Below are positions 31,671-41,724 of a DNA stretch of 64,000 nt, in pieces. Each line of letters begins with the position of its first letter. Within the stretch, counting starts at the first letter, position 1. The stretch comes from the human T2T-CHM13v2.0 reference genome, Homo sapiens, in NCBI RefSeq assembly GCF_009914755.1, contig NC_060940.1, one strand, 5' to 3'. The translations under genes and the position numbers were made by a program. The notes under the pieces are model-generated. The model did no database searches and was not told the origin of the DNA. It worked only from the letters and a program-made list of their open reading frames with translations.

Positions 31671-31795
31671 CAAGGCACTGAAACCCAATGAGATTAGATG
31701 ACTTGCCCAAGGACACAGAATGAGGAAGAGGCAGAGGCAGAGGCAAAGCCCAAGCATTGTAGCATTATATTTCCACTGCACCCAAATGTGAGCTT

Positions 31796-32093
31796 TTTTG
31801 TTTTGTTTTTGAGATGGAGTTTCGGTCTTGTTGTCCAGGCTGGAGTGCAATGGCGCGATCTTAGCTCACTGCAACCTCTGCCTCCTGGGTTCAAGTGATT
31901 CTCCTGCCTCAGCCTCTGGAGTAGCTGGGATTATAGGCATGCGCCACCGTGCTGGGCTAATTTTTGTATTTTTAGTAGAGACGGGATTTCACTATGTTGG
32001 TCAGGCAGGTCTCGAACTCCTGACCTCAGGTGATCCACCAACCTCAACCTCCCAAAGTGCTGGGATTGCAGGTGTGAGCCACCGAGCCCAGCC
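31796..32093 (-). mobile_element. AluSp/Sq-type element, part of a composite insertion extending to 32597
   Basis: gagtttcg.tcttgttg, gtgcaatgg and gttggtcagg diagnostics. Confidence 0.93.
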
Positions 32094-32094
32094 A

Positions 32095-32591
32095 CATTAG
32101 GGCTTTTAGGGTGTCCATCACCCAGCTGATCCATTTCTGGTCTTCTCTAGGGAGATGTTTATTTTGTTTTCAAGTGAGGCTCGAGTGAGAGTGGTTTGTG
32201 AGCCAACCACAGCACTGTCTTGACTGGATATACCATTTTATGCCATTTTGAAAATCCTCCCGTAGTCTTAAAATTGACATTATATTGAGATAATTGTAGC
32301 TCCACATGCATTTGTAAGAAATAATAGAGTGATCTCATATGCCCTTTACCCAGTTTCTCCCAATGATGGCATTTTGTAAAACTATAGTACAATGGGATAT
32401 CGACTCTCACGTTTTTAAGAGAATTTAAAAAAATGCATTCAGTGAGTTCAGGGGCCAGGGCACACACCTCTGCCCCTGGGCTGTGGCAGCACTGCCCTGT
32501 GGGCCCAGAGTCAGGGGCTTGGGAGGCAATCTGACCTGCCTCTGTCAGTGCTCCCTGTGGGGGCTCCCTGGGGCTCAGCTTCTTCACCAGT
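32095..32591 (+). repeat. Direct duplicate (~89% identity by hand count) of 39529-40023
   Basis: Colinear alignment from cattaggg to caccagt; shared ORF peptide KLSPREPPQGA. Confidence 0.97.
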
Positions 32592-37589: not shown

Positions 37590-37835
37590 TCCTGAGAGTA
37601 GCCTTGGAAGTTAGCCCAGTTGGGCCTCAACTCTAGATGCAGCCACTCACCAGCTGTGTGGACTTTGGTAAGTTACCCGATGTCTCCCAGCTTCTCCGTC
37701 CTCATCTGTAAGATGGGGATGAAATTAAAAGTGCTCACTGCACAAGGTTGTTGTGAAGATTAAATCGGGTGAAGATGTCGACTGCCTAGCTTAGTGCCTG
37801 GCATGGAGTGAGGGTTCAGTAAATGCTGGGTGTTA
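37590..37835 (+). mobile_element. MIR
   Basis: ccactcaccagctgtgtg...cctcatctgtaagatggggat...gttgtgaagattaaa. Confidence 0.8.
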
Positions 37836-39225
37836 CAGTTTTGAGCCCTAGGCACTGCTACAGGCTAAAACAAATCCCTTCTCCCTGCTGTACCTCAGTT
37901 TTCCTATCTGAGAAATGAAGGAGTTACATAATATGCCCAAGGTCACTTCTAATTCATAGTCCATGAAATTTTGTTTTAAACATACTTTTTATCTGAGCCT
38001 TGGAGCTGTGCTAAGTAGTGGGAAACCAAAGTATCCTCTAATTATGTCATGCTGACAGGTTGAGGTTTTCTTCACTTTAGCTAGAATTCGAGGGAAGTGG
38101 GTTTTAGCTTTCTCCCTAATATTCTATATTTGAAATGTCAAAAGGAGGCTTTGAGGAATAGGGGAAAGCATGCTGGGAAAAGGACTCTGGAGTCTAATCT
38201 TGATATGGGCTCTGACTGGCTGTGTGATCTCAGGGAAAGTTCTTGTCCACTCTGTTCTTGTGCTTGCTTATTTTTTCAGATGAGGACAAAAACTTTTGCC
38301 CTGGTTCTTTAGAGGGATGCCTTATGGCCAAATGAAATTGAGACACACAATACAAATGGAGCAAATCCTTAGAGATGGAAATATCTAAGGAGGCATTGGG
38401 GCTGGGAGGCTCTGGAGGGTGGTTCCTCATGCCTTTCCCTTCATAATGAACATTCTGGGTCTTTTGCACACACAGAGGTGGAAGAGTTGTGGCAATTAAC
38501 TTCTAGAAAAAAAAATCACCATTCGAAAATGCCAAGGACCTTTTAACACACCTTTTTCTAATGGATCTCTCAGAGGAAGAGGCAGTGAGAAAACAATTTT
38601 ACATTGTCTTTAACCTCTGAGGGGAAGAAATGCTGGCTGTCTTGGATGAATTTCGTCGACTTGGTGCAGAGCAGAAACCAGGGCTCAGGACATAGTGGAG
38701 AATGAGAGGAAAGGAAAGTGAATTGTGAGCGTGTGCATTTTCCTTCTCTGTGTTCATTCCTCTAAGTTGGACAGTTCAGAACCAGCTCTTATATTGGCTG
38801 CTTTGAACTCTTGTACTGCCTGGTTATCACATATCCTGTTTTGAACTGATGGCTGTGGGTTGCCCTTGTTTCTCCAGCTACTCTGTCTGCATTTTGTTAT
38901 CTGTACCAGCCCTTATGAGTGTAGAATTGTGACCCACCATGGATGAGTGGGTCTGATGCAGCCCCTATTTCATGTCGTGAGCTGGTTTGAAACCCTTCTG
39001 TTGTTATGTGGTGATTGCATTCCTAGACACCTCTGTCACCTCCCATACCCAGACGCAGAGTACAATAGACCCATGGCTCTAACAACGTCTTCATCCTATC
39101 CCTTATAGCTGTGTCTGAAACACTTTTAAAAAAATTTATTCAGTTTTTTTATTTGTACAAATGCATGGCATACATGTGCAATTTTGTTTCATGCATAGGT
39201 TGCATAGTGATCATATTAGGGCATT

Positions 39226-39527
39226 CATTTATTTATTTAGGTAGAGTCTCACTCTGTCACCCAGGCTGGAGTGCAGTGGCGTGATTTGGCTCACAGCAAC
39301 CTCTGCCTCCTGGGTTCAAACTATTCTCCTGCCTCAGCCTCCTGAGTAATTGGGATTACAGGCACGTGCCACCATGCCCAACTAATTATTTCTTTTTTAA
39401 AATTTTTAGTAGGTGTGGGGTTTCACCATGTTGACCAGGCTGGTCTTGAACTCATGACCTTAAGTGATCCACCTGCCTCAGCCTCCCAAAGTGCTGGGAT
39501 TACAGGTGTGAGCCACCATGCTGGGCC
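39226..39527 (-). mobile_element. AluSz/Sx inserted in an L1M 3'-end fragment (39125-39560)
   Basis: gagtctcactctgtc, gtgcagtgg, cttaagtgatcc; TSD ATTAGGG(C/T).TT at ~39215-39225 and ~39530-39540. Confidence 0.93.
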
Positions 39528-41724
39528 CCATTAGGGTTTTTGAGGTCTCCATCACCCAACCGGTTCACTTCTGGTCTTCTGTAGGGAGATGTTTATTTTG
39601 TTTTCAAGTGAGGCTCGAGTGAAGTGGTTTGTGAGCCAATCACAACACTGTCTTGACTGGATATACCATTTTACGTCATTTTGAAATTCCTCTCACAGTT
39701 CTTAAATTGACATTATATTGAGATAATTGTGGATCCACATGCATTTGTAAGAAATAATAGAGTGATCTCATATGCCCTTTATCCAGTTTCTCGCAGTGCA
39801 GTATTTTGCAGAACTGTAGTACAATAGGATATTGACTCTCATGTTTTTAAGAGAATTTTTAAAAATGCACTCAGGGAATTCAGGGGGCAGGGCACACACC
39901 TCTGCCCTCAGGCTGTGCAAGCACTGGCCTGTGGGCCTGGAGTCAGGGGCATGGGTAGCAATCTGACCCGGCTCTGTCACTGCTCCCTGTGGGGGCTCCC
40001 TGGGGCTCAGCTTCCCCACCAGTAAGATGAGGGGTGGGATGAGAAGATTACTGAGGTTTCTTTTAGCTCTACCATTTTATGATTTTACACTTCACTCATG
40101 AGAGCCCCTGGGGTCAGCCTGCCCTGGTCTTTTTATTAGATAAATTGTATCTTACTTTGAGCCTACAGAACCAGAGTCAGATGAGTCTGAATTGGACATC
40201 TGTTTCTGGGATCTTCTCAGCATCCACACTGCATTTCCTTAAGGGACTCATCTCCTGCCCTCCTTGGCTCTTGTGATTTAGCTGGGGCAGACCCTGCTTC
40301 CCGGGCTCTAGGATTGGCTCTACGATTGGCTTATTGTTCTAATTAGATATTTTCGTTCTATTTGTGGATAGGTTCATGTTAGGAGGCATGACCTAAGCCA
40401 GCCCATGAGAAGCCATCTAAGGAGTTTTATGAAAACAGTCGAGAAGGGAGAAGGGTTTTCCCCTATGAGGATATTTCAGGGGTAGGGGTTAGGATGGAGA
40501 CCTGGTGCTTCAGGCAGTCATTTACCACCTCAATGAAAGAGCTTGCTCAGAACTAGATCAAAGCAGAGGAATGTGGGGCTGACAGATGAAGAGAGAGACA
40601 TGGACAAACAGTCCCAGAAATATCAATGCATCTGCTGGAGGTCGCGTAGCTATTCCCAGTGGCCCTTGAAGTAAAGGAAGCCTCACTTTACCCATTAACT
40701 CAGGTGAGTAATGGTTATTTCCAGGCGAGAAGAGAGATCTGCTGACTTCATGCATTTGGTTCTGGGGGTGGCTCTGCAAGGAAGGCTAGATGGGAGGGGG
40801 AAAGTTTGCATGCACCTGCAGGCTTGGGATTCACAGTGAACTGGTGGGTTTTTCACTTTCTTTGAAGAGCCCAAAGGCATTTACTGACATGATCTCATTC
40901 GTTTTCAGCTGCAATTGAGTGAAGTCACCTTGATGCAGAAGTGTTTTCTCTTCTCATTCCTGTTAGGAAACCAAGTTACAGCTGAAGCCAGGGCCTTCTC
41001 CTACCCGACTCCCGCGGCCCATTAAAACCTACGTGAGCTTATCTGATACCTTCAAGCCCTGTTTTGTGGCCCCATCTCCTCTTCAGGTATTGTACAGAGT
41101 GACTCACAGATAGCATCCCTGAGCCATTTCTCAGGGAGACAGTGATTTATTGAGATAGAGGCAATAATGTGCTAATTCTAGCAGCCAGTCCAGGCCTCAT
41201 TAGCATCTAAGTTTCCTGGAGTTCAGCTTTAATCACACATGGGAAGAGTTTACCACCAAGGGGTTCTCATACCTCCTGTTCCTTTTGCATGAGTCTTCTG
41301 GAAAGCCTTGGCACTTGTTGAGGTGGTGATGGTAAAGTCAGGGCAGAGGGTTTCAACTGGGGGTGTGAATTATGTTCACCTGGAGAAACTTAAATCTGTC
41401 TACTTATCCATCCATCCGTCCACCTATACATTCGTTCATCATCTTATTATTTACTTAAATAGATAAGACAAGCGTGAAGTAAAAATGAAAACAAAGCTTT
41501 CTAGTCTGTAAAATAAGCATAATGATAACATCTACCACATAGAATTGTTATAATAATGAATTAAATTATTGTATATAAAGTGCCTAGAATAGGGCTTGGT
41601 TCATAGTAAGTTGTAATAGACATGGTAGCTATTATTATTAATGTGAATCTTACATCCCATCCCTCAATCACCTAGTACCCTTCCCATTGCAGATTCTAGA
41701 GATTATCTGCATACATAAATATGT

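What the first reader, a model, noticed from the sequence alone, without database searches (positions are those of the whole stretch)
31785..40023. Composite Alu insertion: one TSD brackets a new Alu plus ~500 bp copied from the flank of a different Alu 7.4 kb away
Seen: AATGTGAGCTT(T/C)TT at 31785-31798 and 32598-32611, with an endonuclease-like TCTT/GA site, splits an L2 remnant. It encloses T-tail + AluSp/Sq (31811-32093) + 32095-32591 + a few filler bases. 32095-32591 is ~89% identical to 39529-40023, which begins exactly at the 5' end of another Alu (39226-39527). That Alu has its own TSD inside an L1M fragment, and its flank continues normally into a MIR, so it is the donor. The two Alus carry different subfamily diagnostics in both arms (gtttcg/gcaatgg/gttggtc/ctcagg vs gtctca/gcagtgg/gttgacc/cttaag), so the donor Alu itself was not copied. 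Inference: during target-primed reverse transcription the finished Alu cDNA end annealed to the homologous 5' end of the neighbouring Alu, copied ~500 bp of its upstream DNA or RNA, then rejoined the target. This mimics a 5' transduction, which Pol III Alu transcripts should not make. About 11% divergence fits the AluS era. It suggests a searchable class of Alu-guided local duplications.
Basis: partly seen in the sequence, partly recalled or inferred. Interest (0 to 1): 0.8.

Follow-up and report, generated by a model that had tools for sequence, protein, structure and literature searches.

The report
Alu insertion carrying a neighbour's flank
One ancient Alu insertion in a human chr16 intron has, inside its own target-site duplication, a 497-bp copy of the DNA that lies just upstream of a different, older Alu 7.4 kb away, which suggests the new Alu copy used the old Alu as a landing pad while it was being stitched into the chromosome.

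Summary
A 14-nt direct repeat (31785-31798 / 32598-32611, 13 of 14 identical) encloses four parts. These are a T-tail, a full-length minus-strand Alu (31811-32093), a 498-nt block (32094-32591) and 6 filler bases. The block is 89.3% identical to 39528-40023, which starts at the 5' end of another minus-strand Alu.

CHM13 holds only these two full-length copies of the block. The two Alus are not copies of each other:
- They are 82% identical.
- They differ at 6 of 6 linked subfamily-diagnostic positions in both arms.
- They share none of their 16 and 20 non-CpG private states.
- At least 39 unrelated Alus are closer (87-90%) to the 31.8-kb Alu than its neighbour is.

Similarity begins only after the last Alu base. 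The new Alu's non-CpG distance from its subfamily (5.0%) equals half the block divergence (4.8%), so Alu and block look equally old.

Best reading (about 0.5): the finished Alu cDNA paired with the neighbouring Alu, was extended into its flank, then was end-joined back to the target. A later break at the Alu/TSD junction, repaired the same way, is not excluded (about 0.2). Primate orthologues could not be examined. I rate it a new variant of known Alu-cDNA recombination and repair-mediated duplication.

The parts
31785..31798 (+). Left target-site duplication, AATGTGAGCTTTTT. Its last T's merge with the tail.
   Evidence: family D2; chance estimate
31799..31810 (-). T-rich tail, the A-tail of the minus-strand Alu. 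It lies directly against the left TSD.
31811..32093 (-). Full-length AluS of a minority subfamily. It has 6 of 6 linked diagnostic states and 12 of 239 non-CpG differences from the majority of its 20 nearest genomic relatives.
32094..32094 (.). Junction base. It is A here and C at the matching donor place, 39528.
32095..32591 (+). Copy of the donor flank 39529-40023. It begins with the donor Alu's right TSD copy (CATTAGGG). Only two full-length copies exist in the genome.
32592..32597 (.). Filler GTAGCC, which is not in the donor. Its last four bases equal the last four bases of the Alu (32090-32093).
32598..32611 (+). Right target-site duplication, AATGTGAGCTTCTT, followed by GA (TCTT/GA).
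39215..39221 (+). Left 7-nt TSD (ATTAGGG) of the older donor Alu.
39222..39238 (-). Degenerate T/A-rich tail of the donor Alu.
39239..39527 (-). Older Alu of the common S type. It has 0 of 6 of the other Alu's diagnostic states and 19 of 238 non-CpG differences from the majority of its nearest relatives. It served as the homology guide and was not itself copied.
39528..40023 (+). Donor segment. It starts with the right TSD copy (39530-39536). Its first ~23 nt past the TSD continue the old repeat that the Alu interrupted.

Best explanation
An L1-driven Alu insertion was completed by way of its neighbour.

Proposed sequence of events:
1. The L1 endonuclease nicked the plus strand at TCTT/GA, and the freed 3' end primed reverse transcription of an Alu RNA of a then-active S subfamily, up to the RNA's first base. 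The TSD, the tail abutting the TSD and the full-length Alu are shown by the sequence. The enzyme is inferred.
2. The finished cDNA end was not joined directly to the other target end. It paired with the 5' end of an older Alu lying in the same orientation 7.4 kb downstream, and a polymerase extended it 497-498 nt into the DNA upstream of that Alu. This step is inferred from four facts. The copy starts at the base after the Alu. The Alu itself is not the neighbour's. The geometry needs no inversion. The donor is local.
3. The extended strand was released, as in synthesis-dependent strand annealing. It was end-joined with 6 untemplated or unplaced bases to the staggered target end, and fill-in produced the 14-nt TSD around the whole 799-bp insert. 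This step is also inferred.

The template was most likely the chromosomal DNA of the neighbour. The product mimics a 5' transduction without any read-through transcript.
For: - Structure: one TSD encloses tail, Alu, block and filler (chance estimate 3.4e-6).
- Copy number of the block: it has just two full-length copies among the 40 matches scored of 914 candidates. The other 38 cover only query 172-301, at 78-83% identity.
- The Alus are independent. They are 82.1% identical against 89.3% for the flank. Non-CpG differences are 35 of 238 against 46 of 478 for the flank, Fisher p = 0.046.
- They share 0 non-majority non-CpG states, although each carries 16 and 20.
- They score 6 of 6 against 0 of 6 at six diagnostic columns spread over 31821-32001. 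Those columns are linked in 49 bystander Alus: 41 carry 0-2 of the states and 6 carry 4-6.
- 39 of 39 listed non-self genomic Alus are 87-90% identical to the 31.8-kb Alu. Of 49 bystanders, 36 are closer to it than the neighbour is.
- Switch point: 5 of the last 20 Alu bases differ, and the last difference is at 32090.
- Ages: the new Alu is 12/239 = 5.0% from its subfamily majority (95% CI 2.6-8.6). Half the flank divergence is 4.8%. The neighbour Alu is 19/238 = 8.0%.
- The donor is ancestral: 20 of 29 copies of its host repeat run across the Alu site into the first ~23 nt of the copied block.
- Precedent: 6 of 226 de novo Alu inserts in HeLa were completed by recombination of the Alu cDNA with a genomic Alu (PMC3415434, passages read). 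Proximal SDSA-type duplications have a mean of 162 bp and a maximum of 619 bp, and their rate tracks L1/Alu activity (PMC2671141, passages read).
Against: - No orthologous sequence was examined, so a one-step origin is not shown.
- The filler ends in AGCC, identical to the last four Alu bases (1 in 256 by chance). This could be the remnant of an ordinary Alu/TSD junction that was later broken, which favours the rival of a later repair event.
- The age match has wide limits, and the 8.0% against 5.0% difference between the Alus is not significant.
- The two Alus share 6 changed CpG-column states, at the top of the bystander range of 0-6, median 3. With 18 and 19 of 42 CpG columns changed, about 8 shared states are expected by chance by my arithmetic, so this does not indicate common descent.
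- The nearest-neighbour sets used as subfamily references were chosen by similarity to each Alu, which can shrink the estimated distances.
- The donor lies 7.4 kb away, beyond the 5-kb limit that Pace et al. used for proximal events.
- In the cell-culture cases the product was a chimeric Alu without a TSD, unlike here.
- The finding was noticed because donor and copy lie in one window, so proximity is partly ascertainment.
Confidence: 0.5

Rival explanations
1. Two separate events. The Alu first inserted normally, with its 5' end against the right TSD. Later a double-strand break at the Alu/TSD junction was repaired by synthesis-dependent strand annealing. The Alu-ended 3' strand invaded the neighbouring Alu, copied 497 nt of its flank and was rejoined. 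This would be an Alu-guided repair-mediated duplication, unconnected with reverse transcription.
For: - The filler's last four bases, AGCC, repeat the Alu's last four bases. This would be expected if a 4-nt staggered break was filled in on both ends.
- Pace et al. list proximal duplications with short TSDs (4-21 nt), filler and microhomology, with sizes up to 619 bp and 824 probable cases in human (PMC2671141, passages read).
- The sequence tests on the Alus and the block fit this rival as well as they fit the best explanation.
Against: - The break must fall within the last ~4 of 283 Alu bases and leave both the Alu and the 14-nt TSD intact. In a reverse-transcription intermediate the free end is there by construction.
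- The Alu distance (5.0%) and half the block divergence (4.8%) give no sign of a delay, though the limits are wide.
- None of the 39 proximal cases inspected by Pace et al. had a poly-A/T tract beside them.
Confidence: 0.2
2. The same event during insertion, but templated by RNA. There are two forms. In the first, the reverse transcriptase switched from the Alu RNA to a local minus-sense transcript that contained the neighbour Alu. In the second, the other target end primed reverse transcription on the plus-sense intron RNA of the host lncRNA gene (LOC105371240) near 40023. That second cDNA ran into the antisense Alu and annealed to the Alu cDNA, as a twin-priming-like event with two RNAs.
For: - Both sites lie in one intron of a plus-strand lncRNA (hub annotation), so nascent RNA holding the donor could be present at the target.
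- Template switching and twin priming are accepted routes to chimeric L1-mediated inserts (PMC13174262, passages read).
Against: - The annotated transcript has the wrong sense for the simple switch.
- No minus-strand transcript is annotated here.
- Twin priming is very rare for Alu: 1 of 5936 germline Alus had a 5' inversion (PMC12016303, passage read).
- Nothing in the sequence, such as a splice junction or editing pattern, marks the block as RNA-derived.
Confidence: 0.12
3. A one-piece copy of the neighbour Alu plus its flank, followed by replacement of one of the two Alus by gene conversion from a third Alu. The one-piece copy would be either a read-through transcript retrotransposed from the Alu's A-tail, that is a true 5' transduction, or a DNA duplication.
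For: - The block is contiguous with the Alu at the donor, and the insert has a tail and a TSD.
- Old Alus duplicated together with adjacent non-Alu sequence have been reported (PMC4666360, passage read).
Against: - The conversion would have to cover at least 31821-32001 in both arms, remove every one of the donor's private states (0 shared) and stop short of the flank.
- The converting Alu would by coincidence have the same age as the block.
- A free RNA copy landing within 7.4 kb of its source in a 3.1-Gb genome is very unlikely (my estimate is about 1e-5).
Confidence: 0.06
4. Coincidence of breakpoints. The block was copied from the donor region before the 39.2-kb Alu arrived, and that Alu later landed at the same base.
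For: The bases next to the junction cannot decide. At the two positions just left of ATTAGGG, one copy base matches the donor's left (pre-insertion) side and the other matches its right side.
Against: - It needs two independent events within about 2 bp.
- The 39.2-kb Alu looks older, not younger, than the block (8.0% against 4.8-5.0%), though not significantly.
Confidence: 0.02

Closest known systems
Alu retrotransposition completed by recombination with a genomic Alu (Wagstaff et al. 2012, PMC3415434, passages read). The analogous chimeric L1s of Gilbert et al. 2002 are recalled, not read.
   Same: A nascent Alu cDNA uses its homology to a nearby resident Alu to resolve the insertion intermediate.
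   Different: In those cases the product is a chimeric Alu without a TSD and with deletion or rearrangement. Here the Alu is not chimeric, the TSD is intact, nothing is lost and the neighbour's unique flank is duplicated. It is a copy-and-return outcome, not a crossover.
Repair-mediated duplications by capture of proximal DNA (Pace, Sen, Batzer and Feschotte 2009, PMC2671141, passages read)
   Same: A short block (497 bp; theirs reach 619 bp) is copied from the same chromosome a few kb away into a break. There is filler at a junction, and the proposed mechanism is SDSA. The authors link the rate to L1/Alu activity.
   Different: Their 39 inspected proximal cases had no poly-A/T tract and relied on 2-9 nt of microhomology. 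Here the block sits inside the TSD of a retrotransposed Alu, and ~280 nt of Alu homology chose the donor. The distance of 7.4 kb exceeds their 5-kb cut-off.
5' transduction by L1 and SVA (recalled; mentioned as a keyword in PMC13174262 and for an SVA source element in PMC4229983)
   Same: Unique DNA from just upstream of a resident element appears at the 5' end of a new insert, within its TSD.
   Different: In a true transduction the new element is a copy of the resident one. Here it is a different subfamily with no shared private changes.
Chimeric L1-mediated retrocopies by RNA template switching, such as U6/L1 and Alu/L1 (PMC13174262 and PMC4476161; the first by passages, the second by listing only)
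   Same: Two sequences of different origin lie in the same orientation inside one TSD.
   Different: Known 5' partners are abundant RNAs or mRNAs from anywhere in the genome, joined to an L1 3' end. Here the 3' part is an Alu and the 5' part is unique intronic DNA from 7.4 kb away, starting exactly at another Alu's boundary.

Membership tests
Classical L1-mediated Alu insertion | Target-site duplication flanking the insert | tested here: met
   14 nt, 13 of 14 identical
Classical L1-mediated Alu insertion | A-rich tail abutting one TSD, and an endonuclease-like cleavage site | tested here: met
   T-tail 31799-31810 lies next to the left TSD, and the target reads TCTT/GA. The consensus site is recalled.
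Classical L1-mediated Alu insertion | The Alu 5' end abuts the other TSD | tested here: not met
   504 nt (32094-32597) lie between the Alu's first base and the right TSD
5' transduction | The extra sequence is contiguous with a resident element at the donor locus | tested here: met
   The block matches 39528-40023, which starts at the base after the donor Alu
5' transduction | The new element is a copy of that resident element | tested here: not met
   82% identity, 6 of 6 against 0 of 6 diagnostic states, 0 shared private non-CpG states, and 39 unrelated Alus closer
Repair-mediated duplication (Pace et al. 2009) | The donor is on the same chromosome within a few kb, and the block is short | tested here: met
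   Donor 7,434 bp away and block 497 bp; these are the only two copies in the genome. The distance is over their 5-kb cut-off.
Repair-mediated duplication (Pace et al. 2009) | Breakpoints with filler, microhomology or deletion, and no retrotransposition hallmarks | tested here: not met
   Filler is present, but the block shares a TSD with a tailed Alu
Alu cDNA / genomic Alu recombination (Wagstaff et al. 2012) | A chimeric Alu, no direct repeat, and loss or rearrangement of genomic DNA | tested here: not met
   There are no donor-type states anywhere in the Alu, and the last difference is 3 nt from its end. The TSD is present. The event is a gain, not a loss.
RNA template-switch chimeric retrocopy | The 5' partner is derived from an RNA | not testable with these tools
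   No expression data were available. The annotated lncRNA has the wrong sense for a direct switch (hub annotation).

The most novel reading that the evidence does not exclude
Reverse-transcription intermediates of Alu, and by extension L1 and SVA, can be resolved by a non-crossover, SDSA-type excursion into a nearby homologous element. Each such event leaves a pseudo-5'-transduction, that is a local duplication of unique DNA enclosed in the new element's TSD. If this is general, it would be a direct mechanistic link between L1 activity and the repair-mediated proximal duplications whose rate tracks L1/Alu bursts. It would also be a class that can be found genome-wide from the signature used.
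Probability: 0.3. Interest if true: 0.7.

Novelty: new variant of a known kind. Interest (0 to 1): 0.55.

Why it matters
If the reading is right, this locus is a preserved intermediate outcome that cell-culture work has not reported. In it, Alu cDNA invades a resident Alu, copies unique neighbouring DNA, and still finishes as a clean insertion with a TSD.

That would matter in three ways:
- It would give a concrete mechanism for part of the correlation between L1/Alu bursts and small proximal duplications.
- It would warn annotators that extra sequence at an Alu's 5' end need not mean Pol II read-through.
- It would define a signature that can be searched for in T2T primate genomes and in long-read sets of de novo insertions.

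The event itself is old and intronic and has no evident function.

Tried and rejected
- Third copy as the true donor: rejected. Only two full-length copies of the block were found.
- Larger segmental duplication: rejected. The alignment stops at 31802/39228 and 32591/40023, and the window self-comparison shows no flanking similarity.
- Filler templated from 12441-12457 on the minus strand (16 of 17 bases with one gap): rejected. 57% of 400 random 24-mers from the window have as good a match or better. Only 7-mers match near donor or target.
- Continuity of the target repeat across the insertion: could not be tested. The genome search with the left flank found only itself. A relaxed local search of 191,543 bases gave 106 HSPs, none spanning the junction.
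- Continuity of the donor past 40023: could not be tested. One search found only the donor and the copy, and the copy ends exactly at query base 94 (window 40023).
A scan of the 280,785 bases already held tested 78 flanks of 100 Alus with intact 5' ends. It found this case and one 100%-identical segmental-duplication pair. It has no power to estimate frequency.
- Print search: three full-text searches plus passages in six papers turned up no report of an Alu whose TSD encloses another Alu's 5' flank. This is a limited search, not proof of absence.

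
Full report
**What is there**

The window is human chr16 (T2T-CHM13), inside an intron of the plus-strand lncRNA LOC105371240 (hub annotation).

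| Part | Coordinates | Note |
|---|---|---|
| Left TSD | 31785-31798 | AATGTGAGCTTTTT |
| T-rich tail | 31799-31810 | |
| Minus-strand Alu | 31811-32093 | complete to its first base |
| Junction base | 32094 | A here, C at the donor place 39528 |
| Block | 32095-32591 | |
| Filler | 32592-32597 | GTAGCC |
| Right TSD | 32598-32611 | AATGTGAGCTTCTT, followed by GA |

- The repeat finder reports the 14-nt repeat as family D2. I estimate the chance of such a match at one of 21 offsets at 3.4e-6.
- The block 32094-32591 aligns to 39528-40023 with 441 matches, 53 mismatches and 6 gap columns, which is 89.3%. The alignment ends sharply at 32591/40023.
- 39528 is the base after the first base of a second minus-strand Alu (39239-39527). 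The copy begins with that Alu's right TSD copy.

**Is the 39.5-kb locus the donor?**

- A search of the whole assembly with the 497 nt scored 40 of 914 candidates. Only two matches cover the full length: the query itself and the 39.5-kb locus at 88%. The other 38 cover only query 172-301 at 78-83% and belong to an old interspersed repeat.
- The second Alu has only a 7-nt exact TSD, ATTAGGG.
- However, 20 of 29 genomic copies of the old repeat that hosts it align colinearly across the site once the Alu, its tail and one TSD copy are removed. They run about 23 nt into what became the start of the copied block.
- So the 39.5-kb sequence is ancestral and continuous, and the copy at 32.1 kb starts in mid-repeat at a point defined only by the Alu insertion.
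- I could not test that the donor continues into a MIR beyond 40023, or that the target is an L2.

**Are the two Alus copies of each other?**

No, on several independent measures:

- Identity: they are 82.1% identical. That is no more than the 31.8-kb Alu shows to two other Alus in the window, at 82.2% and 81.3%.
- Closer relatives elsewhere: all 39 listed non-self matches of the 31.8-kb Alu in the genome are 87-90% identical to it. The nearest relatives of the 39.2-kb Alu are 84-87% identical.
- Comparison set: I aligned both Alus with 98 others. These were the 20 nearest to the first, the 29 nearest to the second, and 49 bystanders that happened to lie in the fetched loci.
- Diagnostic columns: six non-CpG columns spread over both arms (31821, 31828, 31832, 31850, 31940, 32001) separate the groups. 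The 31.8-kb Alu has 6 of 6 of one set of states and the 39.2-kb Alu has 0 of 6. Among the 49 bystanders the states are linked: 41 carry 0-2 and 6 carry 4-6. They therefore mark a subfamily rather than random hits.
- Private states: outside CpG columns the two Alus differ at 35 of 238 sites, against 46 of 478 in the flank (Fisher p = 0.046). They share none of their 16 and 20 non-majority states.
- Ranking: 36 of 49 bystanders are closer to the 31.8-kb Alu than its neighbour is.
- A result that leans the other way: the two share 6 changed CpG-column states, the top of the bystander range of 0-6, median 3. With 18 and 19 of 42 CpG columns changed, about 8 are expected by chance (my arithmetic), so I do not read this as common descent.
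- Switch point: 5 of the last 20 Alu bases differ, and the last difference is at 32090. Similarity to the donor locus therefore starts within the last three Alu bases or after them.

**Timing**

- The 31.8-kb Alu differs from the majority of its own group at 12 of 239 non-CpG sites, which is 5.0% (95% CI 2.6-8.6).
- Half the non-CpG divergence of the block pair is 4.8%.
- The 39.2-kb Alu stands at 19 of 238, which is 8.0%.

The new Alu and the block therefore look equally old and the neighbour looks older. The limits are wide, and the reference groups were picked by similarity, which may shrink the distances.

**Mechanism**

The geometry is simple. The cDNA of a minus-oriented Alu grows as plus strand from the nick at TCTT/GA and ends with the complement of the Alu RNA's 5' end. 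If that end pairs with the minus strand of the same-orientation Alu 7.4 kb to the right, extension proceeds rightwards through 39528-40023. After release, the new 3' end can be joined to the right-hand target end. The result is exactly the observed order, with no inversion and with the TSD around everything. In such a process the cDNA keeps its own sequence to its last base, and new synthesis starts just beyond the Alu, as seen.

The local donor argues for a chromosomal or locally tethered template. A free RNA would be expected to land anywhere in 3.1 Gb.

There is precedent:
- In HeLa, 6 of 226 recovered de novo Alu inserts were completed by recombination of the cDNA with a genomic Alu. Those gave chimeric Alus without direct repeats and with deletions or rearrangements (PMC3415434, passages).
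- Pace et al. described 824 probable repair-mediated duplications in human. Their donors usually lie under 5 kb away, with a mean length of 162 bp and a maximum of 619 bp. They carry SDSA signatures, and their rate tracks L1/Alu activity. None of the 39 inspected proximal cases had a poly-A/T tract (PMC2671141, passages).

The present locus combines the two: Alu-guided invasion, resolved by copy-and-return.

**What stays open**

1. Coupling to insertion. The filler GTAGCC ends in AGCC, the same four bases as the Alu's end (1 in 256 by chance).
   - This could be the remnant of an ordinary Alu/TSD junction that was later cut with a 4-nt stagger and repaired from the neighbour. That is the main rival, at about 0.2.
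   - It can also be accommodated in the coupled model, for example by a second-strand start of four bases before the cDNA end was lost to the neighbour. That is speculation.
   - Against the rival, the break has to fall in the last few of 283 Alu bases.
2. DNA or RNA template. The annotated lncRNA has the wrong sense for a direct switch. It could serve a twin-priming-like route from the other target end, but twin priming is very rare in Alu: 1 of 5936 (PMC12016303, passage).
3. A one-piece copy followed by complete gene conversion of one Alu. This cannot be excluded by sequence alone, but it needs a conversion covering both arms that stops before the flank and is of matching age. I put it at about 0.06.
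4. A copy made before the 39.2-kb Alu arrived. This needs two events within about 2 bp, and I put it at about 0.02. The two bases next to the junction do not decide.

**Comparison with print**

- Three full-text searches and passages of six papers gave no report of an Alu whose TSD encloses another Alu's 5' flank.
- The catalogue of chimeric L1 inserts (PMC13174262) concerns partners joined to L1 3' ends.
- Wildschutte et al. mention two old Alus duplicated with adjacent non-Alu sequence by non-TPRT routes (PMC4666360).
- The works of Gilbert, Symer, Zingler, Ostertag and Buzdin that bear on this are recalled, not read.

**Verdict**

The claim that this happened during reverse transcription is the best reading but is not shown.

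I rate it a new variant of known processes, of moderate to good interest to mobile-DNA specialists. It is decidable with primate orthologues and a genome-wide scan, neither of which the tools here allowed. The small scan of held sequence found only this case plus one segmental duplication among 78 flanks.

Noticed in passing
window 31388-31485 (-) and 31563-31673: A U6 snRNA retropseudogene (Rfam RF00026, 68.1 bits, full model) and a partial Alu-like monomer with an A-run lie within 400 bp to the left of the composite insert. That makes three L1-type insertions clustered in about 1.2 kb of one old repeat.
   Followed up: partly
window 31794-32094: The last 'exon' of the annotated pseudogene KLF8P1 coincides with the T-tail plus Alu. 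It follows several 14-20 nt 'exons' spread over 12 kb. This looks like an alignment artefact of an Alu in the parent mRNA rather than part of the pseudogene.
   Followed up: no
window 32592-32597 and 32090-32093: The 6-nt filler ends in AGCC, the same four bases as the 5' terminal bases of the Alu as read on the plus strand. This could be chance (1 in 256) or a mini duplication that bears on when the block was added.
   Followed up: partly
window 21968-24590 and 61722-63997: Two stretches of about 2.3 kb in the same orientation are 86-90% identical. They are presumably two copies of one long interspersed or LTR family. They were not examined.
   Followed up: no
L068 (G000:C2:131038927-131042008) and L069 (G000:C2:130946534-130949615): These two loci, about 90 kb apart on C2 in opposite orientation, are 100% identical over at least 189 nt beside an Alu. 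They gave identical hits, so this is a recent large inverted segmental duplication.
   Followed up: no
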